From a virus: a stretch of DNA of 33,526 bases. The position numbers were made by a program, and so were the translations under genes. The stretch is from the IMG/VR virus record IMGVR_UViG_3300035501_000483; one strand, 5' to 3'. Below the pieces are notes generated by a model. That model did no database searches, was not told the DNA's origin, and was given only the letters and a program-made list of their open reading frames with translations. Of this stretch, positions 8,942-28,465 are shown one piece after another. How positions within the stretch are numbered: the first letter of the stretch is position 1; every line of letters begins with the position of its first letter.

Positions 8942-9388
8942 ATGATTCAAATTGTAGAAGGTAATTTAGTTAATGCAACTGAAGATTTTATTTGTCATCA
9001 AGTTAATTGTAAAGGAAAAATGAATTCTGGAGTTGCAAGAGCAGTTAGAAACAAATGGCCGCAAGTATATAATGCTTTTCTTACTAAGTGCAATGAGCCA
9101 AATGTACTTGGAGATATTCAAGTAATTCCACTATATGGTGATAAATATGTTGTAAATATGTTCTGTCAACTTGATTATGGATATGATGGGAAGCGATATA
9201 CTTCTTATGATGCTTTTTGGGAAGCTCTAAATTGGATTAAAAAAGTAATTCCTAAAACAAAGTCTATTGCTTTTCCTTGCGGGATTGGATGCGGACGTGG
9301 TGGTGCTAATTGGCATGTAATTTATTCAATGATTGAAGAAGTCCTTAAAGATTATTGGGTAACATTTTATAAATATGAAGAGTCTTAA
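8942..9388 (+). CDS. Macro domain protein (ADP-ribose binding/processing).
   Basis: ICHQVNCKGKMNSGVARAV and IAFPCGIGCGRGGANW resemble the macro-domain motifs (NAAN..GGGV..AI; AFP.ISTG). RBS AAGGGAG. Confidence 0.5.
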   Translation: MIQIVEGNLVNATEDFICHQVNCKGKMNSGVARAVRNKWPQVYNAFLTKCNEPNVLGDIQVIPLYGDKYVVNMFCQLDYGYDGKRYTSYDAFWEALNWIKKVIPKTKSIAFPCGIGCGRGGANWHVIYSMIEEVLKDYWVTFYKYEES

Positions 9389-9390
9389 AG

Positions 9391-9426
9391 AAATGGTTCT
9401 CTTTTATAAGAGAACCATTTTATTTA
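9391..9426 (+). terminator. Rho-independent terminator.
   Basis: AAATGGTTCTCTT-ttat-AAGAGAACCATTT hairpin plus T-rich tail. Confidence 0.65.
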
Positions 9427-9447
9427 TATAAAAAATTATGATATAAT
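9419..9447 (+). promoter_or_regulatory. Promoter with extended -10 (TGATATAAT) and a weak -35.
   Basis: Same tgatataatatttatataa motif as the other promoters. Confidence 0.5.
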
Positions 9448-9484
9448 ATTTATATAAAGATAAGAGAAAAGGAATTGATAAATA

Positions 9485-10183
9485 ATGAGTGTATTTTGTT
9501 GCTCAGACTTACATGGTAATTTTGAATTATATGAGCAAATTTTAAAATTTTTAAAGCCAGAAGATAAAGTGTATTGTTTGGGTGATTGCGGTGATCGAGG
9601 TACTGATTCTTGGAAACTAATCAAAGCAGTTTTATCTAATTCACAATTTATTTATATTAAAGGTAATCACGAAGAAATGCTTATTGATGCAGGAAGAGAA
9701 TTTCTTAAAAGTGAAATGAATGACCTTTCTTGGGTATTACTTACTCAAAATGGTGGTTATGATACTTTTGAAGACTGGCTAAAAGAAGATCATAATGCGC
9801 AATGGCTTAATGTATTAGATAAATTGCCTATTTTTGCTAAATATGAAAATAATGAGGGAACTGTCATTTATATGACTCATGCGGGTTTCACTCCTACGCT
9901 CGCTGAACCAACGCCGCAAACTTTTGACGCACTTTGGAGTAGAGACCATTTTTATGATGGATGGGATGAAGAGAATTTTTCTAATGTAATTTGTGTACAT
10001 GGCCATACTCCTATCCAATATATGTATAAACAATTTGAAGTTCCAGAAGAGAAGTGGGAATATGGAGCATTACATTATTGCGGGACGCATAAGATAAATA
10101 TTGACCAAGGAACATATGTTTCTAATGTTGCTTGCCTTTTGGATTTAGATACTTTTGAAGAACATCTATTTCAAGCAGAATGA
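9485..10183 (+). CDS. PPP-family (lambda-phosphatase/PrpE-like) Ser/Thr or polynucleotide phosphatase.
   Basis: Motifs GDLHG-like CSDLHGN, GDCGDRG and GNHE. TGA stop. Confidence 0.7.
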   Translation: MSVFCCSDLHGNFELYEQILKFLKPEDKVYCLGDCGDRGTDSWKLIKAVLSNSQFIYIKGNHEEMLIDAGREFLKSEMNDLSWVLLTQNGGYDTFEDWLKEDHNAQWLNVLDKLPIFAKYENNEGTVIYMTHAGFTPTLAEPTPQTFDALWSRDHFYDGWDEENFSNVICVHGHTPIQYMYKQFEVPEEKWEYGALHYCGTHKINIDQGTYVSNVACLLDLDTFEEHLFQAE

Positions 10184-10189
10184 CAATTT

Positions 10190-10218
10190 TTGACATTTTA
10201 TGAAAAATATGTTATAAT
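10190..10218 (+). promoter_or_regulatory. Consensus sigma-A promoter (TTGACA, 17 bp, TGTTATAAT).
   Basis: Perfect -35 at 10190-10195 and extended -10 at 10210-10218. Confidence 0.65.
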
Positions 10219-10309
10219 TTTTATATGAATAAGAAAGGGAAAAAATTATGGATAATAATGTTTTAATTCTTATTGGAAATATTAAAAGGGCTGCAAAGAA
10301 GAGTGTATA

Positions 10310-10579
10310 ATGGCACGTAATAATAATTATACAGAACACAGTTTTTATTGCATTTGTTGCGGTAATCGAGGAATCCCTCTTATGCGGAAACAAGGTTTTC
10401 AGCATGAGAGATTTCATCGAAAGAAACTCTACTGTCCATTCTGTAAACAAGAAGTTAATCATATAGAGTGTAAAACACTTGAAGATATAGAAGAGTTTCA
10501 GAAAAATTTTGTTAATGGGGTGTATAGAGATGAAGCAGAAGAGAGTTTGGCTTTTGTGCGGGATTCCAGCGTCAGGTAA
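10310..10579 (+). CDS. Small zinc-finger protein.
   Basis: CICCGNRG ... CPFCKQEVNH Cys pairs. A 20-codon mini-ORF (10248-10310) precedes it. Confidence 0.45.
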   Translation: MARNNNYTEHSFYCICCGNRGIPLMRKQGFQHERFHRKKLYCPFCKQEVNHIECKTLEDIEEFQKNFVNGVYRDEAEESLAFVRDSSVR

Positions 10580-10991
10580 AAGCAGTTGGGCTGCTAGACA
10601 AAATGGTAATTGCATTTCTCGTGATACTGTCCGTTTTAGTATGGTGAATGAAAATGAAGAGTATTTTTCTAAAGAAGATGCTGTTTTTAATGAATTTATT
10701 CACCAAATTAATGAGTCTATTAATACTAATGAAGATACTTATATTGATGCAACTCATATTAATCAGCGCAGTCGAAATAAAACTTTGAATAGATTGAATC
10801 TTAAAGGTGTTGATATTTATGTGGTAAATTTTCTTACTTCTCTTGAAACTTGTCTTAAGCGCAATTCCAAAAGAGAAGGCAGAGCGCAAGTTCCTGAGTC
10901 TGTTATTCAAAATATGAATAACTCTTTTGTTCCTGCTTCCCCAAATGAAAAATATGAATATAAAAAAATTATTTATATTAAGGAGGTTTGA
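10530..10991 (+). CDS. P-loop kinase (AAA_33/polynucleotide-kinase-like).
   Basis: Walker A LLCGIPASGKSSWA. Overlaps the upstream ORF end. Its stop overlaps the downstream start. Confidence 0.55.
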   Translation: MKQKRVWLLCGIPASGKSSWAARQNGNCISRDTVRFSMVNENEEYFSKEDAVFNEFIHQINESINTNEDTYIDATHINQRSRNKTLNRLNLKGVDIYVVNFLTSLETCLKRNSKREGRAQVPESVIQNMNNSFVPASPNEKYEYKKIIYIKEV

Positions 10992-11551
10992 TGCTTATGA
11001 TTTTCGTGTCATCCGATTGGCACTTCTGGCACGATAAAGAATTTATCTGGAAAGCCCGAGGATTTAACAGTGTCCAAGAGATGAATGAAGCAATTATTTA
11101 TAGACATAATTCAAGAGTAATTGATTCTGATGATGTTTATGTTCTTGGAGATTTATGTTTGGGCGATCTTGAAGCTGGGAGAGAATGTATCTCTCAGATG
11201 AGGGGAAAGTTACATATCGTTCTTGGTAATCACGATACCTCTCGCCGCATTGAAATGTATAAGTCACTTCCAAATGTAGTTGAAATCGCAGATGCGCTCC
11301 GCATTGATTTTGGAAAGTATCATTTCATTGCAACACATTATCCTATGCTAACTGGAAATTTGGAAAAAGAATCTTTAAAGCGAATGACTCTCAATTTGCA
11401 CGGCCACACTCATTCTTCTAGCAAGTTTTATTATGAACTTCCTTACTGTTATCATGTGGGAGTAGATGCTCATGATTGTAAACCTGTGCAAATGGAAATT
11501 ATTTTAGAGGATATGAAAAATAAAGTATATGATTTGAACCTTGTTAATTAA
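10991..11551 (+). CDS. Metallophosphoesterase, translationally coupled to the kinase.
   Basis: Motifs SDWHFWHD, VLGDLCLGD and VLGNHD, with downstream His residues. ATG overlaps the kinase TGA (ATGA). Confidence 0.65.
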   Translation: MLMIFVSSDWHFWHDKEFIWKARGFNSVQEMNEAIIYRHNSRVIDSDDVYVLGDLCLGDLEAGRECISQMRGKLHIVLGNHDTSRRIEMYKSLPNVVEIADALRIDFGKYHFIATHYPMLTGNLEKESLKRMTLNLHGHTHSSSKFYYELPYCYHVGVDAHDCKPVQMEIILEDMKNKVYDLNLVN

Positions 11552-11569
11552 ATAAAAAGGAGATTATTT

Positions 11570-13009
11570 ATGAGTAGTATTATTACGCCCCATTTCATCA
11601 TTCCCGCCATTATTGTAATTGCGGTGATTGTAATTCTTGCTTCTGGATATTTGAAGGCACCGCCTGACCAAGCATATATTATTTCTGGGCTTGGGAAGAA
11701 ACCTAGGATTCTGGTCGGTCAAGCGGGAATTAAGATTCCTTTCTTTGAGCGAGTAGATAAGCTAGCTCTTGGTGCTGTTCAGATTGACGTAAAGACTTCT
11801 AGTGCGGTTCCTACTGCTGAGTATATCAATGTGCGAGTGGATTCCAATGTAAACGTACGGATTGGGCAGTCTACTGAAATGATTGAGCTTGCTGCTCAGA
11901 ATTTTCTGAACGTATCTCGTGGAGTGATTAATGATAAGGTACGTGACCTTCTGGAAGGTAATGTTCGTGAGATTGTGGGTAGCATGGCGCTGACTGACAT
12001 GGTTTCTGACCGTAAGGCATTTGCTGAAAAGGTTCAGGAAAATGCTGTTCCTGATTTGGCTCGTTTTGGTTTGGAACTGATTTCTTTTAATGTCCAGAAC
12101 TTCATTGATGATAATGGCGTAATTGAAAATCTTGGTATTGATAATGTGGAGCAAATTCGTAAGAAGGCTGCTATCGCAAAGTCTGATGCTCAGCGTGAAA
12201 TTGCTATTGCTGAAGCTAATAATGCTAAGACTTCTAATGATGCTAAGGTGCAGGCTGCAGAGGAAATTGCAAGTCGTAATAACGACCTGGCAATTAAGCA
12301 GGCTCAGTTGAAGCAGGAGGCTGATACTAAGCAGGCTCAGGCAGATGCAGCTAAGGAAATTGAGGCTGAGAACCAGCGTAAACTGCGTGATGTCGCTGCA
12401 ACTAATGCCAATATTGCTAAGGCTGAGCGTGAAGCTGAACTGAAGCAAAAGCAAATTGAACTTAAGGAATATGAGCTGGATGCTTTGGTGCGCAAGCAGG
12501 CTGATGCAGAAAAGTATGCTGCTGAGAAGCAGGCTGAGGCTGATTTGATTTCTCGCCAAAAGAAGGCAGAAGCAGAACGTTTCGAGCGTGAGCAGAAAGC
12601 TGAAGCTGATAAGTTTGCGGCTCTGCAAGAAGCTGAAGCTATGAAGGCTAAGGCTGATGCTACTAAGTATGCGGCCTTGGCTGAAGCTGAAGGTATTGCA
12701 GCCAAGGGTTCTGCAGAAGCTGAGGCCATTGATAAGAAGGCAGAAGCCCAGAAAAAGATGGGTGAAGCATCTGTCCTGGAAATGTACTTTGACGCGCTCC
12801 CTGAAGTTGTTAAGCAAGCTGCCATCCCTCTTGCTAATGTGGATAGAATTACTATGTACGGGTCTGATAATTCCACTAAGATGGTTGGAGACGTGATGCA
12901 GTCGGCTGACCAGATTATGGCTGCAGTATCCAATGCTACGGGCATTGATATGAAGACTGTGATTGCTAGTTACCTTGGTAGTAAGGGTGCTCAGAATACT
13001 GAAGAGTAA
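11570..13009 (+). CDS. Flotillin-like SPFH/band-7 membrane protein with a long EA-repeat coiled coil.
   Basis: N-terminal TM helix (IIPAIIVIAVIVILA), SPFH-like body, then an approximately 200-aa A/E/K-rich coiled coil. RBS AAAGGAG. GC-richer than surrounding genes. Confidence 0.6.
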   Translation: MSSIITPHFIIPAIIVIAVIVILASGYLKAPPDQAYIISGLGKKPRILVGQAGIKIPFFERVDKLALGAVQIDVKTSSAVPTAEYINVRVDSNVNVRIGQSTEMIELAAQNFLNVSRGVINDKVRDLLEGNVREIVGSMALTDMVSDRKAFAEKVQENAVPDLARFGLELISFNVQNFIDDNGVIENLGIDNVEQIRKKAAIAKSDAQREIAIAEANNAKTSNDAKVQAAEEIASRNNDLAIKQAQLKQEADTKQAQADAAKEIEAENQRKLRDVAATNANIAKAEREAELKQKQIELKEYELDALVRKQADAEKYAAEKQAEADLISRQKKAEAERFEREQKAEADKFAALQEAEAMKAKADATKYAALAEAEGIAAKGSAEAEAIDKKAEAQKKMGEASVLEMYFDALPEVVKQAAIPLANVDRITMYGSDNSTKMVGDVMQSADQIMAAVSNATGIDMKTVIASYLGSKGAQNTEE

Positions 13010-13021
13010 GATATATTTAAT

Positions 13022-13053
13022 GCGGTATAGATTTTTCTATACCGCATTTTTTT
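13022..13053 (+). terminator. Rho-independent terminator.
   Basis: GCGGTATAG-a-ttttt-CTATACCGC perfect hairpin plus a T7 run. Confidence 0.75.
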
Positions 13054-13135
13054 ATACTTCTACCCAGGCGCCCGGCGCGGCCGAGGTTTGGAAATTTTGC
13101 GCCTATAGAAATTTTTTTAGCAAAAGCCTCCAAAT

Positions 13136-13164
13136 TTGCTTTCTATACATTTTTATGCTATAAT
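13136..13164 (+). promoter_or_regulatory. Sigma-A-type promoter (TTGCTT, 17 bp, TGCTATAAT).
   Basis: Extended -10 at 13156-13164. Confidence 0.5.
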
Positions 13165-13198
13165 ATATATAGAAATAATAGTAGAAAGGAGTAGTATA

Positions 13199-13630
13199 AT
13201 GAAATATGAACCTATTTTTGAATGGGATGAAACCACAAGAACAGCAGTATGTATTCTAAGCGATGGCGAAAAATTATTTTATGGAACTGCTAATTGCCAT
13301 TCGGACGATGCAGATATGTGTAGTGAAAAAACTGGTTGTGAAATCGCTTTTAGACGAGCAAAAATTAAATATTATAGATATTATAGAGATTGCTTAAAAG
13401 AACGTAAAGCTGCGCTTCATCAATTATATTATTCTATAAATAAAAGTAAGAAATTTAATGAAAAATCTTATGAAAATAGAATGTTACAAAGACAAATTCA
13501 TATGATTGATTTTGATTTAAATACAGCTTATGAATTGTTAGCTAATGAAGAACAAGATTTAATAGAATATATTAAAAATAAAGATGAATTTTATAAAAAT
13601 ATACGAAAGAATCGAAAAGGCCAAAAGTAA
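13199..13630 (+). CDS. Hypothetical protein (143 aa).
   Basis: RBS AAAGGAG lies 8 nt before ATG 13199. The ORF-track start at 13136 was rejected because it lies inside the promoter. Confidence 0.5.
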   Translation: MKYEPIFEWDETTRTAVCILSDGEKLFYGTANCHSDDADMCSEKTGCEIAFRRAKIKYYRYYRDCLKERKAALHQLYYSINKSKKFNEKSYENRMLQRQIHMIDFDLNTAYELLANEEQDLIEYIKNKDEFYKNIRKNRKGQK

Positions 13631-13685
13631 GTAATGCTTATTTTTTAATTTCCATTATCTATGAAGGGCATATCCTGAAGAAGGA

Positions 13686-13943
13686 GTGGTTATTATAGTC
13701 TGGAGTTTCATGTTCGGTATAATTTTTATTGCATTTATTTATCCCATGATTGAATCTGGAGTTAATGTAATAATAACTTATTTAGAAATGGTCAAAGGTA
13801 AATTCACTGTTGAAATAACTAAAATGAATTTACAAATTTCAAAACTTGCAAATCCAGAAGAAGAGCAAAGTGTAACTCATGCTATCGGATTTGCAATACC
13901 AACCGAAGAAGAAGAGGAAGAGGCATATGAAGAAGATATATAA
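13686..13943 (+). CDS. Small membrane protein with an acidic C-terminus. Start is uncertain.
   Basis: ORF with an N-terminal hydrophobic segment and an EEEEEEAYEEDI tail. Overlaps the start of the next gene. Confidence 0.3.
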   Translation: MVIIVWSFMFGIIFIAFIYPMIESGVNVIITYLEMVKGKFTVEITKMNLQISKLANPEEEQSVTHAIGFAIPTEEEEEEAYEEDI

Positions 13944-15186
13944 ATTTTATGATACTTGCAGTTTGTTAATAAAAGCAGATTCTTTATTTGAAGATGAAGA
14001 CCATGTAATTATTTCTTCTATTACTTTAGATGAATTAGAAAATATTAAGACTTCCGCAAATAAAGATGCTGATGTAAAATATGCGGCCCGCAGACTATTG
14101 CATCTTTTGGATGAGCATCCTGACGCCTATGAGGTATGGATTTTCAAAAAGAGTATGCTTGAGCCAATTATTGAAAAAGACTTATCAATAACAAATGACA
14201 CTTCAATTTTAGCAACAGCTATTGATTATGATAAAAATTGTCATCCTGATGAAACAATTTTTGTTACTAATGATTTAGCATTAAAAAATATTGCTAATTT
14301 ATTTTTTGGAAATGATTCAATTGAAAGTGTCGAAGAAGAAGCTATAGATGATTATACTGGGTATCTTGAAATTACTATGTCAGATGACCTTATGTCAGAA
14401 TTTTACTCTCAACCATTTACTAATATGTTTAACTTAAAGGTTAATCAATATTTAGTAGTGTCAAATATGGATAATGAAATTGTAGATACTCTTTGCTGGA
14501 CTGGTGAAGAATATCGGCATCTTAATTATAAAAACTTTAGTTCTCGTTACTTTGGCGACGTAAAACCTTTTAAAGGAGATATTTATTAGGCAATACTCGC
14601 TGATAGCTTAATTAGTAACAAAATTACATTAGTAAAAGGCCCGGCCGGTTCTGGAAAAACTTATTTATCTCTTGCCTACTTACTTAGTCAATTGGATAAA
14701 GGAAAAATTGATAAAATCATAGTATTTTGTAATACAGTGGCGACTAAAGGATCTGCTAAACTGGGGTATTACCCTGGAACGCGAGACGAGAAGCTCCTTG
14801 ACTCGCAAATCGGCAATCTTTTAGCTAGTAAATTAGGTGGGCGTTTATTGGTTGAACAAATGATCCAACAAGAAAAATTAGTTCTTTTACCATTGAGTGA
14901 TATACGAGGTTATGATACTTCTGGAATGAATGCTGGAATTTATATCTCAGAAGCGCAAAATATGGATGTTAGTTTGATGAAACTTACATTACAAAGAATT
15001 GGCGATGACAGTATTTGTATTATTGATGGCGATTGTAAAACGCAAGTTGATAGTATTGAATACTCTGGGTCTAATAATGGTATGCGTCGTGCCTCTAAAA
15101 TCTTTAGAGGTGAAGACATTTATGGAGAAGTTACTTTAAAAACAATCCATCGCTCAAGAATCGCAGAAATTGCAGAAAATATGTAA
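13927..15186 (+). CDS. PhoH2/YlaK-like PIN-domain plus PhoH ATPase. One in-frame TAG (14587-14589) is read as sense.
   Basis: PIN-like N-terminus (KIYKFYDTCSLL...). After the TAG, the same frame continues into the PhoH Walker A motif VKGPAGSGKT and an SEAQN box. RBS GAGGAAGAGG. Confidence 0.7.
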
Positions 15187-15897: not shown

Positions 15898-16302
15898 TTG
15901 AAATATAGTTCAAGTAATAAACCATTACAATGTATGATGACAAATAGTACTTGTTATAAAGGTACTACAACAATGACGATTAAAGGTGTTTTATGGCATA
16001 GTACTGGAGCAAATAATCCCAATTTAAAAAGATATGTTTAGCCCAGTTCTAATGACCCCAATTATAAAACACTAATCAGCAAGATTGGTAAAAATACCAA
16101 TAATAGTGATTGGAATCATATTGAACGTGAAGCTGGTTTGAATTGCTGGATTGGTAAGCTGGCTGATGGAACTGTGGCCACTGTATAGACAATGCCTTGG
16201 AATTATAAACCGTGGGGTTGTGGTAAAGGTTCTAAAGGGTCTTGTAACAACGGGTGGATTCAATTTGAGATTGACTCTTCAAACAGTCTCCGTATAGAGT
16301 AA
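15898..16302 (+). CDS. N-acetylmuramoyl-L-alanine amidase (Amidase_2/T7-lysozyme fold) endolysin, exon 1. Two in-frame TAGs are read as sense.
   Basis: GVLWHSTGANNP compared with T7 lysozyme IFVHCSATKP; DGTV; NGWIQFEI compared with NSIGVCLV. RBS GAAGGGAG. As drawn, ends at TAA 16300; the true 5' splice site lies a few codons upstream. Confidence 0.55.
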
Positions 16303-16667
16303 TCTGTATGTTAAAATATGCATTGAATTGCTGGGAACTCCTAAAGCTATATCTACCACAACAGAAAGATGAAATAAGCTTAAATGTGAAGGTTACGAAA
16401 GTAGAAAAAAAGATATAGATGGCACAAGGTTAAATCCTAAATGTTTGAATAATGGACAATCAGCAGCGAAGTCTCGAATAGAGAAACGTTCAACGACTAT
16501 CCTGTAAAGGAGTAGATTATATTGTCAGATATAATCGAAGTGGTGCACTCCATTTATTAATGGATGAAGATATAGTCTGTACTTTATTGAAAAATAAAGA
16601 GATTAAGAATAATCAAGTATAAAGAAATTTGACAAATTTCATTTAAAAAAATACTTTAACAAAATAG
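16303..16667 (+). ncRNA. Putative group I self-splicing intron in the endolysin gene. Boundaries are approximate, plus or minus 20 nt.
   Basis: About 365 nt with stops in all frames, separating two same-frame halves of one Amidase_2 domain. Contains the group I J8/7-P7 signature AAGATATAGTC (16568-16578) with a complementary GACTATC at 16495-16501. A CTTTATT-GAAA-AATAAAG tetraloop hairpin (16582-16599) sits immediately 3', in a P9-like position. Confidence 0.5.
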
Positions 16668-17217
16668 ATGTGAAGATGATTTAAACGATGAGACCTATTT
16701 TAACAAAGTTTATAAAGAAGCTTGTGAAATTACAGCTTATTTATGTAAATTATACAACATTGACCCTAATGGAACTACAACTTTTAATGGTGTAAAAGTT
16801 CCAACAATTTTATGTCACCATGATAGTTATACATATGGCCTTGGCTCTAATCATGCGGATGTTACTCACTGGTTTCCAAAATTTGGAAAAAGCATGGCCA
16901 CAGCCAGAAATGATGTAGCTAATTTAATGAATGGAGTTACTTCCACTTCTACTTCAGTATCTACATCTACATCAAAAATTACACCAATTAATAAAGAGGA
17001 GGATGAAGACATGACTCAAGAAAAATTTAATGAAATGATGACTAGTTATATCAATACTCTTGCGGAAAAAGATGCTACATTTGAGAAAGACGCAATGGAA
17101 TGGGCTAATGCTAATGGTTTAATTAGTGGCGACGATAAAGGCCGATTAATGCCTAAAAAGTTTTTGACTCGTGGAGAAATGGCTGTTATCCTAAAGCGTT
17201 ACAACGAGAAAAAGTAA
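16668..17217 (+). CDS. Endolysin exon 2: Amidase_2 C-terminal catalytic segment, Ser/Thr linker and SLH-like cell-wall-binding module.
   Basis: ILCHHDSYTYGLGSNHADVTHW compared with T7 lysozyme LRAHHEVAPKACPSFD. The tail EWANANGLISGDDKGRLMPKKFLTRGEMAVIL fits the SLH consensus. Same reading frame as exon 1. No ATG/RBS of its own precedes the domain start. Confidence 0.5.
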
Positions 17218-26579: not shown

Positions 26580-27536
26580 TTGATTGGAATAATTTGTCTG
26601 TTGATTGGACTTATAATAGGCGCGATTGTTGTATATACAATTCAACAGCCAAAGGTGAAAACAACTTAGAAACTTGATACAGAGATAATAAAATAGAATC
26701 AAGCTTTATAGGTTGAATTAGCGTCTTTGAGTACTAAAAAAGAAGAAGTCCAATCAAGCATTTAGTCTTTAAAAGAACAAGCAAATACTGCTGCTGAAGA
26801 ATTTAATAAAAATGCAAAAGAACTTGCAGAAGAAAAATTTAAAAAACAAATTGCTTCTATGGATAAAGCTTGCGAAATTCATTAGAGAGAATGCAATTCT
26901 CAATATTTGGAAATTTTGGAAGATTTAGCCAGCAGCACCCAAAAGTAGATTCAATCTTATAAAGATTCAGTTATAAATTATGAAACTACTATAAAATAGC
27001 TTGAATCAAAAATTAAAGACCAAGAAGCTATTATGTCTGCGGCAGTCGCTGTAAATATACGAGCCGCAGAAATGGATAATAAACAAGATTTTTACCGTTT
27101 AAATCTTTCTTCTGAAGATATAAGTGAAATTAAACGATTAAGAGAAGTAACTCCTTATTTAAGAAATAGTGAACCTCTTAATAAAGTAATCTGGAAAACT
27201 TATTATGAAAAAGCTTATACTGATTTAATTGGACGAGTTGTTGGCTCTGGAGTCCATACTGGTATTTATAAGATAACCAATATTGAAAATAAGATGTGTT
27301 ATGTCGGATAGAGTGTGGATATCGCCGAACGGTGGAAGCAGCACATTAAGCGTGGTATTGGCGCAGAAGCCCCAACTCGCAATAAGTTGTATCCAGCTAT
27401 GCTTGCTGTTGGAGTTGAAAATTTTACTTTTGAAATTATTGAAGAATGTGATCGCTCTTTATTAAATGAAAGAGAGCAATACTGGACTAGCTTTTTAAAA
27501 GCCAAAGAGTTCGGATATAGTATGAGAAGTGGTTAA
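26580..27536 (+). CDS. GIY-YIG homing-endonuclease-like protein with an N-terminal TM helix and coiled coil. Eight in-frame TAGs are read as sense.
   Basis: TTG start 7 nt after AAGGAG. A single frame is maintained over 318 codons only if TAG is sense. C-terminal GIYKITNIENKMCYVG-Q-SVDIAERWKQH is a GIY-YIG motif. Confidence 0.55.
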
Positions 27537-27538
27537 AA

Positions 27539-28465
27539 ATGCCGAAATTAAAAGATTTAACAGGATAGAGTTTTGGAAGATTAGTAGTATTATATCAAGC
27601 TGATTCTAAAAATAAACGAGTTTATTGGCATTGCCGGTGTTCTTGTGGAAGAGAAATTGATATACGAGCTGATAGTTTAACTAGCGGTAATACTGTTAGT
27701 TGCGGTTGCTATCTTAAAGAGACAGCCTCAAGATTAGGGAAAAAATTAAAATTAGATTTAACAGGACAAAGGTTTAATAGATTAATAGTATTAGAAGAAG
27801 ATTTTTCAAAAAAACGAGTTGCTTGGAAGTGTTAGTGTGATTGTGGGAATACAACGATAGTTACATCTGATGCTTTAAGAGGCGGTACAACTTAGAGTTG
27901 TGGATGCCTTTAGAGAGAAAGAGCTATTGAGGCAAATAAAAAAGAAATTCATACTCCACGAATAAATATTATCAATAAACGTTTTGGTAAATTAACTGTT
28001 ATTGAAATCTATAAATATCAAGATAATGATATGTTTTATAAATGTAGGTGTGATTGTGGTAATATAGCAATAGTTAGTGGCACACATCTTAGAAGTGGTC
28101 ATACTTTATCATGTGGTTGTATAAAAAGTTCTTATTACGCTTCTTTAATAGGTAATATTTTAGAAGAATTAAACATCCCATATGAGAAAGAACGTACTTT
28201 TAAAACCTGCATAAATCCAAAAACTAATAATAAATTAAGATTTGATTTCTATATAGATAATAAAATTTTATTAGAATATGATGGTATTTAGCATTTCAAA
28301 GATTCACCAATATTAAAAGAATATTAGTATAGAGATAATATAAAAAATGAATGGTGTAAGCAAGAAGGAATTCCTTTAATAAGAATTTCTTATAAAGAAA
28401 ATAAAAATATCAATATAGATTATATAAAAAGTATTCTTAAAGAATACGGATATAGTATAAAATAA
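27539..28465 (+). CDS. Homing-endonuclease-like protein with a triple W-x-C-x-C-x-CG...SCGC zinc-ribbon repeat and a C-terminal Vsr/PD-(D/E)xK-like domain. Six in-frame TAGs are read as sense.
   Basis: ATG 2 nt after the upstream stop. Three repeats: WHCRCSCG...SCGC, WKC(TAG)CDCG...SCGC and YKCRCDCG...SCGC. One TAG occupies the position held by Arg in the two sister repeats. Confidence 0.5.

What the first reader, a model, noticed from the sequence alone, without database searches (positions are those of the whole stretch)
8942..11551. A dispersed Pnkp-like RNA or tRNA end-healing and sealing toolkit: Rnl5-like ligase, P-loop kinase fused by ATGA overlap to a metallophosphoesterase, a PPP phosphatase and a macro domain.
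The kinase (10530-10991) and MPP (10991-11551) are translationally coupled (ATGA). Together they resemble a split bacterial Pnkp (kinase plus lambda-phosphatase-like 2',3'-phosphatase).
A second PPP-family phosphatase (9485-10183) and a third MPP (3196-3972) are nearby, along with a Pol-beta NTase and a DEDDh exonuclease.
The macro domain (8942-9388) could process ADP-ribose-1''-phosphate generated during 2'-phosphate removal. Alternatively it could reverse host ADP-ribosylation defences (DarT-like).
Together with the tRNA-binding ligase, this looks like a counter-measure to host anticodon nucleases. It is more elaborate than T4 Pnk plus Rnl.
Basis: inference. Interest (0 to 1): 0.55.

Follow-up and report, generated by a model that had tools for sequence, protein, structure and literature searches.

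The report
Phage RNA-end repair genes plus anti-ADP-ribosylation macrodomain
A large gut-type phage carries a conserved trio of genes (a zinc-ribbon protein, a polynucleotide kinase and a phosphoesterase) that most likely mends RNA cut by host defence nucleases. It sits beside a separate enzyme that probably strips ADP-ribose off phage DNA, so this is a new arrangement of counter-defence tools that are already known.

Summary
All five reading frames are real, conserved genes and the domain calls hold. These are a macrodomain (8942-9388), a lambda-phosphatase-like PPP (9485-10183), a Pnk-type P-loop kinase (10530-10991) and a metallophosphoesterase (10991-11551).

Corrections:
- The kinase/MPP junction is TGATG (1-nt overlap), not ATGA.
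- The kinase-coupled MPP is not lambda-phosphatase-like. It belongs to the uncharacterised COG4186/AQ1665 group. The Pnkp-phosphatase-like protein is the separately transcribed PPP.
- The macrodomain is an orphan DarG/SCO6735-class enzyme. It more likely removes ADP-ribose from DNA than serves RNA repair.

The kinase family profile matches the bacterial Pnkp kinase domain (4.5e-22) and T4 Pnk (7e-18), with the catalytic residues conserved. Znf-kinase-MPP forms one operon, with a consensus promoter and a terminator after a flotillin gene. The kinase lies just upstream of the MPP in 57 of 80 related viral loci. RNA ligases of three families, Thg1, cRec and NAD-salvage genes recur nearby.

Best reading: a split, Pnkp-like RNA end-healing module that feeds an intein-containing RNA ligase, plus an independent anti-DarT-type macrodomain. 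This is a new variant of a known kind, of moderate interest. No biochemistry exists.

The parts
8942..9388 (+). Orphan macrodomain protein (148 aa) of the ALC1-like class, DarG/SCO6735/Bt_1257 type. It is the last gene of the ligase-containing transcription unit.
   Evidence: NCBIfam DarG 1e-16 over macro positions 1-143 of 338. PADLOC DarG 1.5e-19. PDB hits: TaqDarG 5m31 3.5e-8, Bt_1257 2.5e-7, SCO6735 5e3b 2e-4. In the Bt_1257 alignment a Gln in NMFCQ aligns with Bt_1257's own Gln (NMIGQ), in the segment where DarG has Lys80. The link to SCO6735 Gln85 comes from PMC9411070. There is no DarT-binding C-terminal domain and no DarT gene next to it.
9390..9421 (+). Intrinsic-terminator-like hairpin after the macrodomain gene
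   Evidence: 14-bp stem followed by a T-rich tail
9485..10183 (+). PPP-family phosphatase (232 aa) of the lambda-phosphatase/NinI type. This is the gene that resembles the phosphatase domain of bacterial Pnkp.
   Evidence: The motifs DLHG, GDxxDRG and GNHE are invariant. Family profile against PDB: lambda phosphatase 1g5b 1.1e-15 over the full length. AF2 model pLDDT 96.9. Foldseek: 1g5b 1e-12; CthPnkp phosphatase 4j6o 1.3e-9, TMq 0.68; also ApaH-like and PP1. phrog_246 NinI-like 6e-31.
10190..10218 (+). Consensus sigma-70-type promoter (TTGACA, 17 nt, TG-n-TATAAT) upstream of the Zn-ribbon gene
   Evidence: 12 of 12 matches with an extended -10. It is the best site in 5900-13700.
10310..10579 (+). 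Zn-ribbon protein (89 aa, CxxC...CxxC, basic). Its 3' end overlaps the kinase start by 50 nt.
   Evidence: phrog_1257 2.7e-10. Conserved in L003 at 59% identity and present in 46 of 80 related viral loci. The same overlap with the kinase start appears in L004, L006 and L007.
10530..10991 (+). Stand-alone polynucleotide 5'-kinase-type P-loop kinase (153 aa)
   Evidence: AAA_33 1e-19; TIGR04075 bacterial Pnkp kinase region 4e-10; phrog_505 PNK 5e-22. Family profile against PDB: CthPnkp kinase 4.5e-22, T4 Pnk 6.9e-18, PSTK 3.8e-17, Pnkp1 1.7e-14. Invariant residues are G11, G16, K17, S30, D32, R35, D73-A74-T75, N112 and R115. About 30% identical to T4-like pseT genes.
10991..11551 (+). Metallophosphoesterase (186 aa) of the COG4186/AQ1665 group, with a TGATG junction to the kinase
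   Evidence: Metallophos_2 2e-7; phrog_547 4.5e-42. Invariant D9, H11, D54, N80, H81, H116, H139 and H141. AF2 pLDDT 94. Best PDB match is 1xm7 (unknown function), TM 0.70, followed by MJ0936 and Mre11. BFVD matches are phage 'phosphoesterase' proteins labelled COG4186. A kinase lies directly upstream in 45 of 80 viral loci and within 1.5 kb in a further 12.
11570..13009 (+). Flotillin/SPFH protein. It is co-transcribed downstream of the MPP and its role in the module is unknown.
   Evidence: Band_7 6e-20, Flot 3e-6. It follows the MPP in most relatives.
13019..13048 (+). Terminator-like hairpin that ends the Znf-kinase-MPP-flotillin unit
   Evidence: 13-bp stem and a T run
6160..8565 (+). ATP-dependent RNA ligase with an N-terminal OB domain (PHA02142/Rnl5-like). 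It is interrupted by a LAGLIDADG intein (aa 191-549, nt 6730-7806) directly after motif I, KMHG|TS.
   Evidence: phrog_968 RNA ligase 5.4e-63; PF21189 and PF09414 weak; LAGLIDADG_2 2e-12 and Hint/intein models. Intein boundaries are C...HN|T. The spliced product gives TIGR02306 1e-15 over the N-terminal half only, 57 bits against a cutoff of 151.
4795..5154 (+). cRec (cyclic-phosphate-processing receiver) domain protein, upstream of the exonuclease and the ligase
   Evidence: PF20274 5.2e-16, 59.5 bits against a cutoff of 27. PMC7824862 describes the family as linked to RNA ligases.
5170..5985 (+). DEDDh 3'-5' exonuclease
   Evidence: RNase_T 3.4e-12
2159..3972 (+). Nucleotidyltransferase (2159-3175) followed by a third metallophosphoesterase (3196-3972)
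   Evidence: phrog_388 2.4e-16. There was no match to the RlaP family PF10127 and no PDB match. The MPP gives Metallophos 1e-10 and phrog_1649 5.5e-24.

Best explanation
The stretch holds two separate counter-defence functions of a large TAG-recoded phage.

(A) RNA end-healing. A conserved operon runs from the promoter at 10190 through the Zn-ribbon gene, the Pnk-type 5' kinase, the COG4186 metallophosphoesterase and flotillin to the terminator at 13019. A separately transcribed lambda-phosphatase-like PPP lies just upstream.
- The kinase would phosphorylate the 5'-OH ends left when host anticodon nucleases or other metal-independent RNases cut tRNA or RNA.
- One or both phosphoesterases would open and remove the 2',3'-cyclic or 3' phosphate. 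The cRec protein next to the ligase may also take part.
- The ends would then be sealed by the intein-containing OB-fold RNA ligase 2.4 kb upstream.
- In effect this is a Pnkp split into separate polypeptides.

(B) ADP-ribose removal. The macrodomain is an orphan DarG/SCO6735-class ADP-ribosyl hydrolase. It most likely removes ADP-ribose from phage DNA (anti-DarT2 type) and is not a step in RNA healing.

What is shown: gene reality, family assignments, catalytic-residue conservation, operon signals and synteny. What is inferred: every substrate and activity.
For: Kinase:
- The family profile hits the CthPnkp kinase domain at 4.5e-22, T4 Pnk at 7e-18, PSTK at 4e-17 and Pnkp1 at 2e-14. Generic kinases score about 1e-4.
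- The P-loop, the S-x-D-x-x-R motif, DAT and the RN..R lid are invariant across 33 homologues.
- The nearest cultured-phage hits are annotated pseT or PNK.

Pairing with the MPP:
- The junction is TGATG.
- The kinase lies immediately upstream of the MPP in 45 of 80 IMG/VR loci and within 1.5 kb in 12 more, down to about 37% MPP identity.
- The same order is seen in seven independently fetched contigs and in MAG-binned copies.
- The promoter and terminators define the unit.

PPP:
- Full-length lambda-phosphatase relative at 1.1e-15.
- Structurally as close to the CthPnkp phosphatase (TMq 0.68) as to lambda phosphatase.
- Both lambda phosphatase and CthPnkp hydrolyse nucleoside 2',3'-cyclic phosphates (PMC2190708).
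- In L009 the PPP, kinase and MPP genes are contiguous, and the PPP overlaps the kinase start.
- PHROG profiles 246 and 8238 match the kinase and the PPP at successive positions of one profile, which suggests that fused kinase-PPP(-ligase) proteins exist elsewhere.

RNA context:
- A window-type ligase lies within 6 kb in 16 of 80 loci. An Rnl1-type ligase replaces it in L004, L026 and L037. Thg1 occurs in 6 loci.
- cRec sits upstream of the ligase operon in the window.
- Bacillus phage KLEB27-3 has an RNA ligase, a PNK, two MPPs and an NTase in one 8-kb block.
- Listeria phage LMSP-25 has RtcB, NADAR and a COG4186 MPP within 4 kb.
- The general scheme is described for jumbo phages in PMC7824862.

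Macrodomain:
- DarG models score 1e-16 and 1.5e-19.
- A conserved Gln lies in the catalytic-loop segment, aligned with Bt_1257's Gln. SCO6735, a homologue of Bt_1257, removes thymidine-linked ADP-ribose and needs its Gln85 (PMC9411070).
- Phage macro (AdfM) and NADAR (AdfN) orphan antitoxins are experimentally proven.
- Relatives carry NADAR, or place the macrodomain inside the NAD-salvage cluster, at the equivalent position.
Against: - No member of this kinase, PPP or MPP clade has been assayed.
- The COG4186 MPP has no characterised relative. Its nearest structure is annotated 'unknown function'.
- More distant COG4186 homologues (40% identity or less, in bacteria and other phages) occur without any kinase. 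The family's ancestral role therefore need not be RNA healing.
- The operon also carries a flotillin gene with no obvious RNA role.
- The ligase is only an occasional neighbour (16 of 80 loci), and in the window it lies in a different transcription unit.
- There are no tRNA genes in the window, and no host anticodon nuclease is known for this phage.
- Two or three phosphoesterases plus cRec would be redundant for a single step.
- The PPP's closest characterised relative is known chiefly as a protein phosphatase. It also scores against ApaH (5.8e-11).
- The macrodomain shares its operon with the ligase, which leaves an RNA-linked role open.
Confidence: 0.5

Rival explanations
1. The kinase and phosphoesterases process DNA ends, not RNA ends. 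They would supply 5' phosphorylation and 3'-phosphate removal at nicks or breaks made by host nucleases or by the phage's own homing endonucleases. The phage's NAD-dependent DNA ligase would then seal the DNA.
For: Pnk-clade kinases, including T4 Pnk and mammalian PNKP, act on DNA as well, and the profile hits PNKP at 1.9e-10. The window encodes an NAD-dependent DNA ligase, gyrase and several homing endonucleases, an intein and an intron. The MPP's distant structural neighbours include Mre11/SbcD.
Against: The recurrent neighbours are RNA enzymes: three RNA ligase families, Thg1, cRec and PIN-PhoH. The DNA ligase lies 12 kb away in a replication block. The best kinase matches are the RNA-repair enzymes CthPnkp, T4 Pnk and PSTK.
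Confidence: 0.12
2. The phosphoesterases are signal or nucleotide scavengers. They would degrade cyclic (oligo)nucleotide immune signals, Ap4A or Np4 caps, or 2',3'-cNMPs. The kinase would have a separate nucleotide-related role, and the adjacency would reflect a shared 'early anti-defence' expression class, not one pathway.
For: The PPP scores 5.8e-11 against ApaH and has ApaH-like structural neighbours. The MPP profile hits the GpdQ diesterase, and Foldseek finds the cAMP phosphodiesterase Rv0805 and the MJ0936 diesterase. The surrounding island in relatives is NAD- and ADP-ribose-centred: NAMPT, NAD synthase, NADAR. The COG4186 MPP occurs without a kinase in many phages and bacteria. PMC7824862 predicts such roles for calcineurin-like phage enzymes.
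Against: The kinase-MPP order is very tight and persists over a wide divergence (57 of 80 loci). The kinase carries the polynucleotide-kinase catalytic set, not a nucleotide-kinase one.
Confidence: 0.15
3. The PPP is a NinI/lambda-type protein Ser/Thr/Tyr phosphatase. It would reset host or phage protein phosphorylation, for example by countering kinase-based defences, and would be unrelated to the kinase-MPP pair.
For: The best match by far is lambda Ser/Thr phosphatase (1.1e-15, full length). phrog_246 'NinI-like serine-threonine phosphatase' scores 6e-31. The PPP has its own transcription unit between a terminator and a promoter. It is present in only 25 of 80 loci.
Against: Where present, it lies immediately upstream of Znf-kinase, and it is contiguous with the kinase in L009. 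The CthPnkp phosphatase domain is an equally good structural match. PHROG profiles span kinase and PPP together.
Confidence: 0.15
4. The macrodomain belongs to the RNA pathway. One version is the reader's first idea, hydrolysis of ADP-ribose-1''-phosphate left by 2'-phosphotransferase. The other is removal of ADP-ribose from RNA, either 5'-phosphate-linked caps or base modification by RNA-targeting ADP-ribosyltransferase defences, before ligation.
For: It is the last gene of the operon that contains cRec, the exonuclease and the RNA ligase, and a terminator follows it. It gives a weak match to yeast-type ADP-ribose-1''-phosphatase (6lfu, 6.6e-4). PMC7824862 proposes that a subset of phage macrodomains act in NAD-dependent RNA repair.
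Against: No Tpt1/KptA family was found on any ORF scanned in the window. DarG-class matches are far stronger (1e-16 and 1.5e-19). The SCO6735-type Gln is in place. In L003 the orthologue (55% identity) sits between NAPRTase and NAD synthase with no ligase. NADAR takes the equivalent place in other relatives.
Confidence: 0.15

Closest known systems
Bacterial Pnkp (Clostridium thermocellum Pnkp/Hen1 RNA repair system)
   Same: The kinase domain comes from the same clade (profile 4.5e-22 with matching catalytic motifs). A PPP/lambda-type binuclear phosphatase is present, and an ATP-dependent ligase is encoded nearby.
   Different: Here the activities sit on separate small proteins, not one 850-aa kinase-phosphatase-ligase chain (TIGR04075 38 bits against a cutoff of 750). 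The gene order is PPP, Znf, kinase. An extra COG4186 MPP is the gene actually coupled to the kinase. No Hen1 methyltransferase was seen in the window. The ligase is an OB-fold PHA02142/Rnl5-like enzyme, not the Pnkp ligase domain.
T4 Pnkp (PseT) plus Rnl1, the classic phage answer to the PrrC anticodon nuclease
   Same: The kinase is of the same family, about 30% identical to T4-like pseT genes, with T4 Pnk at 7e-18. The proposed logic is the same: heal both ends, then seal with a phage RNA ligase.
   Different: T4 Pnkp fuses the kinase to a HAD (DxDxT) 3' phosphatase. Here the kinase stands alone and the candidate phosphatases are metallophosphoesterases. The ligase family differs in the window, although relative L004 does have an Rnl1-type ligase.
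Jumbo-phage RNA-repair gene sets described by comparative genomics (Iyer et al. 2021, PMC7824862)
   Same: The inventory is the same: ATP-dependent RNA ligase, polynucleotide kinase, phosphoesterase, Pol-beta NTase, cRec, Thg1, PIN-PhoH, Macro or NADAR, and NAD salvage. That paper notes that calcineurin-like phosphatases replace HAD in a few phages.
   Different: The fixed Znf-kinase-COG4186 MPP operon, the additional lambda-like PPP and its spread through a TAG-recoded gut and rumen phage clade were not found in the sections of that paper that I read. The NTase here is not detectably RlaP (PF10127).
Orphan antitoxin-like anti-DarT factors: AdfM (PhiKZ gp104, macro) and AdfN (T4 30.3, NADAR); bacterial SCO6735
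   Same: It is a stand-alone macrodomain of the DarG/ALC1-like class in a phage with no DarT partner. The Asn of the VN..G motif is conserved. It is 22% identical to AdfM with a pairwise E of 9e-8. It has the Gln variant of the catalytic position, as in SCO6735/Bt_1257.
   Different: AdfM and DarG keep the catalytic Lys (PTK motif), whereas the window protein has Gln. It has not been tested on any substrate. In the window it is co-transcribed with an RNA ligase.

Membership tests
Polynucleotide 5'-kinase clade (T4 Pnk / bacterial Pnkp kinase domain / PSTK) | P-loop GxxxxGK(S/T) near the N-terminus | tested here: met
   GIPASGKS at residues 11-18. G11, G16 and K17 are invariant in 33 homologues.
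Polynucleotide 5'-kinase clade (T4 Pnk / bacterial Pnkp kinase domain / PSTK) | Catalytic Asp and Arg in an S-x-D-x-x-R motif, a DAT(N/H) motif and an Arg-containing lid | tested here: met
   SRDTVR (S30, D32 and R35 invariant) aligns with CthPnkp SSDFCR. DATH aligns with DATN. RNSKREGR aligns with ERNKNRTDR.
Polynucleotide 5'-kinase clade (T4 Pnk / bacterial Pnkp kinase domain / PSTK) | Closer to Pnk-clade kinases than to other P-loop kinases | tested here: met
   4gp7 4.5e-22, 1ly1 6.9e-18, 3adb 3.8e-17 and 4xrp 1.7e-14, against adenylate kinases at about 4e-4.
Polynucleotide 5'-kinase clade (T4 Pnk / bacterial Pnkp kinase domain / PSTK) | ATP-dependent phosphorylation of 5'-OH polynucleotide ends | not testable with these tools
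   Needs an enzyme assay.
Bacterial Pnkp (TIGR04075, trifunctional, Hen1-associated) | Kinase, phosphatase and ligase domains in one polypeptide that scores above the family cutoff | tested here: not met
   153-aa stand-alone kinase, 38.5 bits against a cutoff of 750, matching only positions 12-137 of 851. All 83 close homologues are 124-182 aa.
Bacterial Pnkp (TIGR04075, trifunctional, Hen1-associated) | Adjacent Hen1 RNA 2'-O-methyltransferase | tested here: not met
   No methyltransferase family matched any ORF scanned in the window. The rest of the genome was not seen.
T4-type Pnkp | C-terminal HAD (DxDxT) 3'-phosphatase domain fused to the kinase | tested here: not met
   The protein ends 20 residues after the kinase lid, and no HAD match was found.
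PPP / lambda-phosphatase family (for 9485-10183) | Signature motifs GDxHG, GDxxDRG and GNHE plus the downstream His ligands | tested here: met
   SDLHG, GDCGDRG and GNHE, with H132, H172 and H174 invariant in 41 sequences.
PPP / lambda-phosphatase family (for 9485-10183) | Full-length similarity to lambda phosphatase in sequence and fold | tested here: met
   1g5b 1.1e-15 over residues 2-203. Foldseek 1.1e-12, TM 0.67-0.70.
Pnkp phosphatase domain (for 9485-10183) | Specific similarity to the CthPnkp phosphatase beyond general PPP similarity | tested here: inconclusive
   4j6o ranks fourth by fold (1.3e-9, TMq 0.68). It is absent from the 60 listed of 89 sequence-profile hits.
COG4186 / AQ1665-like metallophosphoesterases (for 10991-11551) | Metallophosphoesterase metal-ligand motifs (DxH, GD, GNH[D/E], H, GHxH) | tested here: met
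   SDWHF, LGDL, GNHD, THYP and GHTH. D9, H11, D54, N80, H81, H116, H139 and H141 are invariant.
COG4186 / AQ1665-like metallophosphoesterases (for 10991-11551) | Closest fold is AQ1665 (1xm7) and phage 'COG4186' proteins | tested here: met
   1xm7 1.5e-8, TM 0.70. Profile hit 6.4e-7. BFVD hits 4e-15 to 1e-11, TM 0.73-0.81.
DarG antitoxin (DarTG2 system) | Macrodomain homologous to the DarG N-terminal domain | tested here: met
   NCBIfam NF048014 1e-16. PADLOC DarG 1.5e-19. 5m31 3.5e-8.
DarG antitoxin (DarTG2 system) | C-terminal DarT-binding domain and an adjacent DarT toxin gene; score above the family cutoff | tested here: not met
   148 aa covering only profile positions 1-143 of 338, 61 bits against a cutoff of 250. 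The neighbours are 54-59-aa ORFs and a PPP.
DarG antitoxin (DarTG2 system) | Catalytic lysine (Lys80) | tested here: not met
   The PTKKHW segment of TaqDarG aligns with FCQLDY. No Lys is present, and a Gln lies in that segment.
SCO6735/Bt_1257 subclass of ALC1-like macrodomains | Gln at the position of the DarG/TARG1 catalytic Lys | tested here: met
   NMFCQ aligns with Bt_1257 NMIGQ. Gln85 is essential in SCO6735 (PMC9411070).
SCO6735/Bt_1257 subclass of ALC1-like macrodomains | Extended 'mobile loop' (about 5 residues longer than in DarG or TARG1) | tested here: inconclusive
   The pairwise HMMER alignments show no clear length difference in that region. No structure was modelled for the macrodomain.
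Rnl5 / DRB0094-type RNA ligase (for 6160-8565) | N-terminal OB domain followed by a nucleotidyltransferase domain with motif I KxHGTS | tested here: met
   PF21189 OB domain and TIGR02306 positions 8-176. KMHG|TS is restored after intein removal.
Rnl5 / DRB0094-type RNA ligase (for 6160-8565) | Full-length match above the family cutoff | tested here: not met
   57.5 bits against a cutoff of 151, N-terminal half only. The C-terminal half matches PF09414 and T4 Rnl2 only weakly. The best family is phage phrog_968.
cRec (PF20274) (for 4795-5154) | Match above the Pfam gathering score | tested here: met
   59.5 bits against 27, E 5.2e-16, covering profile positions 1-87 of 88.
RlaP (PF10127) RNA-ligase-associated NTase (for 2159-3175) | Match to PF10127 | tested here: not met
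   No PF10127 hit at E 0.01 or better. Only phrog_388 'nucleotidyltransferase' matched, and there was no PDB hit.

The most novel reading that the evidence does not exclude
The Zn-ribbon protein, the stand-alone Pnk kinase and the COG4186 metallophosphoesterase form a previously unrecognised three-part RNA end-healing enzyme. The COG4186 MPP would be the 2',3'-cyclic phosphodiesterase/3'-phosphatase and the Zn ribbon the RNA or tRNA targeting subunit. If so, this gives a first function to a 'phosphoesterase' family annotated without function in about 1,600 cultured phage genomes, including Listeria P100-like, PAK_P1-like, ICP1-like, rV5-like and AR9 phages. It would also define a third architectural solution for phage end-healing, beside T4 kinase-HAD and bacterial kinase-PPP-ligase.
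Probability: 0.3. Interest if true: 0.55.

Novelty: new variant of a known kind. Interest (0 to 1): 0.38.

Why it matters
Phage repair of nuclease-cut tRNA is known almost entirely from T4 Pnkp and Rnl1. This block suggests that a large clade of TAG-recoded Bacillota phages from animal guts solves the same problem with different parts: a split kinase, two metallophosphoesterases, a Zn-ribbon partner, and ligases that are swapped between families.

It offers a concrete, testable function for the very common but uncharacterised COG4186 phage phosphoesterase. It also points to a Gln-type (SCO6735-like) macrodomain as a second flavour of phage anti-DarT factor beside the Lys-type AdfM.

It is not a new principle. 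The gene inventory matches what comparative genomics has already predicted for jumbo phages.

Tried and rejected
- A nucleotide-level search of the region against cultured phages found nothing.
- There are no tRNA genes in the window or in L001-L003, so there is no tRNA-supply link.
- Rfam gave only a group I intron elsewhere in the window, and nothing in the 1.1-kb kinase/MPP spacer of L002 and L003. That spacer holds a truncated GIY-YIG ORF.
- I looked for true kinase-MPP or kinase-PPP fusions among close homologues and found none. All 83 kinase hits, the top 120 MPP hits and the top 120 PPP hits are single-domain proteins.
- The apparent fusion in L046 is two ORFs separated by a TAG. The similar single fragment in L097 was not checked.
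- The kinase, PPP, MPP, Znf, flotillin and cRec proteins match no PADLOC defence model, so a phage-borne defence system is unlikely.
- The NTase could not be placed in RlaP or in any solved structure.
- The spliced ligase has no convincing PDB relative by sequence.
- A literature search for COG4186 found no functional study.
- The genome scan with the kinase alignment failed for lack of a conserved stretch, and the AFDB50 fold library was unavailable.
- I considered extending the kinase upstream through in-frame TAGs (10404-10991) and rejected it, because the homologues start at the 10530 Met.

Full report
**The sequence and its setting.** The window is a low-GC (about 32%) stretch in which all genes lie on the + strand. 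It encodes gyrase B and A, an NAD-dependent DNA ligase, RNase H, PIN-PhoH, a flotillin, a major-vault-protein-like protein and an AAA_24 ATPase. This is the early/replication region of a large phage. It has no nucleotide-level match among cultured phages. Related contigs of 75-413 kb are present in IMG/VR and in gut and rumen metagenomes. Copies binned into MAGs fall mostly in Bacillota bins.

**Checking the observation.** All have protein-level homologues:
- macro, 55% identity in L003;
- PPP, 44% identity in L003;
- kinase, 46-85% identity in L002 and L003;
- MPP, 82-89% identity in L002 and L003.

Database searches found 83 kinase relatives, 999 or more MPP relatives and 6,530 PPP relatives. 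The domain calls are correct.

Three details are wrong or missing:
- The kinase stop (TGA, 10989-10991) and the MPP start (ATG, 10991-10993) share one base. The junction is TGATG, not ATGA. An AAGGAGG at 10980-10986 and a second in-frame ATG at 10997 leave the exact start open.
- An 89-aa CxxC...CxxC Zn-ribbon gene (10310-10579, phrog_1257 2.7e-10) overlaps the kinase start by 50 nt. The gene and the overlap are conserved in relatives.
- The 'lambda-phosphatase-like' partner is not the kinase-adjacent MPP (see below).

**Kinase.** A profile of 33 homologues hits the kinase domain of Clostridium thermocellum Pnkp at 4.5e-22 over its full length. It hits T4 Pnk at 6.9e-18, PSTK at 3.8e-17, Capnocytophaga Pnkp1 at 1.7e-14 and mammalian PNKP at 1.9e-10. 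Adenylate kinases score about 4e-4. The P-loop, S-x-D-x-x-R, DAT and lid residues are invariant and align with the CthPnkp catalytic residues. In cultured phages the nearest hits, at about 30% identity, are genes annotated pseT or polynucleotide kinase. The phosphatase half is left open: the PPP's nearest relative is a protein phosphatase that also acts on nucleotide cyclic phosphates. The protein is a stand-alone kinase. It is not a member of trifunctional bacterial Pnkp (38 bits against a cutoff of 750) and not of the T4 kinase-HAD type.

**The two phosphoesterases.**
- PPP (9485-10183). It has the PPP signature motifs. Its family profile matches lambda phosphatase at 1.1e-15 over the full length. 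A confident model (pLDDT 96.9) is closest to lambda phosphatase (1e-12). The CthPnkp phosphatase domain ranks fourth with the same TM-score (0.68), alongside PP1 and ApaH-like structures. Lambda phosphatase and CthPnkp both hydrolyse nucleoside 2',3'-cyclic phosphates (PMC2190708).
- MPP (10991-11551). It has all the metal-ligand motifs and a confident model (pLDDT 94). Its nearest solved structure is Aquifex AQ1665, of unknown function (TM 0.70). MJ0936 and Mre11 follow distantly. In viral structure predictions it matches 'COG4186 predicted phosphoesterase' proteins. Homologues occur in 1,608 cultured-phage records, all without a known function. I found no functional literature.

**Transcription units.** A terminator-like hairpin follows the macro gene (9390-9421). 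A 12-of-12 sigma-70 consensus promoter with an extended -10 lies at 10190-10218. A second hairpin follows the flotillin gene (13019-13048). The likely units are:
- [cRec, exonuclease, ligase, two small ORFs, macro];
- [PPP];
- [Znf, kinase, MPP, flotillin].

These are consensus matches, not measured transcripts.

**Conservation of the arrangement.** Seven contigs recovered through the kinase or MPP proteins share the order (PPP)-(Znf)-kinase-MPP-(Band_7)-...-PIN-PhoH. In L009 the PPP overlaps the kinase start and all three enzymes are contiguous.

I searched 80 IMG/VR loci found with the MPP alignment (31-82% identity) using my own HMMs. The results were:
- 62 loci have a Pnk-type kinase;
- in 45 the kinase lies directly upstream of the MPP (200 nt or less);
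- in 12 more it lies within 1.5 kb upstream;
- 46 have the Zn-ribbon gene;
- 25 have the PPP;
- 41 have PIN-PhoH;
- 20 have the flotillin.

In L002 and L003 the spacer is a 1.1-kb insert with a truncated GIY-YIG ORF, which is a mobile-element insertion. More distant COG4186 homologues in bacteria and other phages lack the kinase. The pairing therefore characterises this phage group and not the whole family. No true fusions were found.

**Link to RNA.**
- The window ligase (6160-8565) is an RNA ligase (phrog_968 5e-63) with an N-terminal OB domain of the PHA02142/DRB0094 kind. A 359-aa LAGLIDADG intein is inserted right after motif I (KMHG|...|TS). The spliced protein matches the Rnl5 model only in its N-terminal half and below the cutoff, so 'Rnl5-like' is a resemblance and not membership.
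- A ligase of this type lies within 6 kb of the kinase-MPP pair in 16 of 80 loci. An Rnl1-type ligase takes its place in L004, L026 and L037. Thg1 appears in 6 loci.
- The window also has a cRec protein at 4795-5154 (PF20274, 5e-16). This family has been proposed to open cyclic phosphates and has been reported in operons with RNA ligases (PMC7824862).
- Bacillus phage KLEB27-3 has an RNA ligase, a PNK (32% identical kinase domain), two MPPs (one 29% identical to the window MPP) and an NTase in one block.
- Listeria phage LMSP-25 has RtcB, a NADAR protein and the COG4186 MPP within 4 kb.

Together these support an RNA end-healing role by association. None of it is direct evidence.

**Macrodomain.** It matches DarG models far better than the generic Macro model (1e-16 and 1.5e-19, against 6e-6). 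It is only the macro half, with no DarT-binding domain and no DarT neighbour. In the alignment to TaqDarG the catalytic-lysine segment PTKKHW is replaced by FCQLDY. In the alignment to Bt_1257 its NMFCQ matches NMIGQ. Bt_1257 is 54% identical to SCO6735. SCO6735 removes thymidine-linked ADP-ribose from DNA, rescues DarT toxicity, and needs Gln85 at exactly this position (PMC9411070).

Phage orphan antitoxin-like hydrolases are established. AdfM is the macrodomain of PhiKZ (PMC13309987). The window protein is 22% identical to it. AdfN is the NADAR protein of T4 (PMC11825919).

In L003 the macro orthologue lies between NAPRTase and NAD synthase. In L010, L012 and six IMG/VR loci a NADAR occupies the corresponding island. 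No Tpt1/KptA was found in the window. I therefore favour DNA de-ADP-ribosylation over the ADP-ribose-1''-phosphate idea. Its co-transcription with the ligase keeps an RNA-linked role possible.

**Mechanism and confidence.**
- Most likely (about 0.5): Znf-kinase-MPP, assisted by the PPP and possibly cRec, converts 5'-OH and 2',3'-cyclic-phosphate RNA ends into 5'-phosphate and 3'-OH ends for the RNA ligase. This would counter host tRNA or RNA nucleases. The macrodomain would independently reverse DNA ADP-ribosylation.
- Rivals: DNA end processing (0.12); phosphoesterases as signal, Ap4A or cap hydrolases (0.15); the PPP as a protein phosphatase (0.15); an RNA-linked macrodomain (0.15).

**Novelty.** The kind is known from T4 Pnkp/Rnl1, from bacterial Pnkp/Hen1 and from the jumbo-phage RNA-repair inventories of PMC7824862. 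What is different is the architecture. There is a stand-alone Pnk kinase in a fixed operon with a Zn-ribbon protein and an uncharacterised COG4186 MPP. There is also a lambda-type PPP. The arrangement is spread through a TAG-recoded phage clade. The macrodomain is a Gln-type orphan. I rate this a new variant of a known kind with moderate interest.

**Other observations.**
- The phage appears to read TAG as Gln. The single in-frame TAG in PIN-PhoH (14587-14589) lies at a Gln conserved in relatives. Two ORFs (26580-27536 and 27539-28465) need 8 and 6 TAG read-throughs, and the first then shows a GIY-YIG domain.
- None of the five genes in the finding contains an in-frame TAG, so their boundaries are unaffected.
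- A group I intron lies at 16267-16599.

Noticed in passing
window 14587-14589; 26580-27536; 27539-28465; L011 5531-6232: TAG seems to be read as Gln (code-15-like recoding). The one in-frame TAG in PIN-PhoH (13879-15186) falls on a Gln conserved in L003, L006 and L011. Two otherwise 'non-coding' stretches become 318-aa and 308-aa ORFs with 8 and 6 in-frame TAGs, and the first has a GIY-YIG domain (1.3e-10). L011 has TAG where L012 has Gln in the PPP.
   Followed up: partly
window 6730-7806 (within ligase 6160-8565): A 359-aa intein with a LAGLIDADG homing endonuclease is inserted directly after ligase motif I (KMHG|C...HN|TS). Removing it restores KMHGTS.
   Followed up: yes
window 16267-16599: A group I intron (RF00028, 63 bits, E 6e-14) lies between ORF 15898-16302 and a downstream frame (16711-17217). 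That frame matches the SLH-domain C-terminal part of the relatives' lysins. This is probably an intron-split lysin gene.
   Followed up: partly
window 4795-5154: A cRec (cyclic-phosphate-processing receiver, PF20274, 5e-16) gene lies just upstream of the DEDDh exonuclease and the RNA ligase.
   Followed up: partly
window 43-2070 and 11570-13009: A 675-aa protein carries major-vault-protein shoulder (1.5e-22) and vault repeat (4e-8) domains, and there is a 479-aa flotillin/SPFH protein. These are two SPFH-related scaffold-type proteins in a phage. The flotillin is co-transcribed with the kinase-MPP pair and conserved in relatives.
   Followed up: no
L002 476-1562; L003 4915-5958: Close relatives carry a roughly 1.1-kb insert with a truncated GIY-YIG homing-endonuclease ORF exactly between the kinase and the MPP. 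In the window these two genes abut.
   Followed up: yes
L004, L006, L008, L010, L011, L012, L003 (upstream of the PPP/kinase): The island upstream of the conserved PPP-Znf-kinase-MPP block varies between relatives. It holds different mixes of Thg1, NAMPT/NAPRTase, NAD synthase, nicotinamidase, PRPP-type transferase, NADAR, macro, and an Rnl1- or PHA02142-type RNA ligase. It behaves like a counter-defence hot spot.
   Followed up: partly
window 4074-4304 and 4385-4648: Two tandem small membrane proteins have similar C-terminal halves (...VDDxVSxxDFxKxY...EGL...). They are apparent paralogues with no family match.
   Followed up: no
L096-L130 (genome contigs): Copies of the same phage block sit on 10-185-kb contigs binned into gut and rumen Bacillota MAGs (Clostridia, Lachnospiraceae, Oscillospiraceae, Acutalibacteraceae and 'Mollicutes'). 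Together with the SLH domain of the lysin, this suggests a Bacillota host. These contigs are probably phage genomes mis-binned as bacterial.
   Followed up: no
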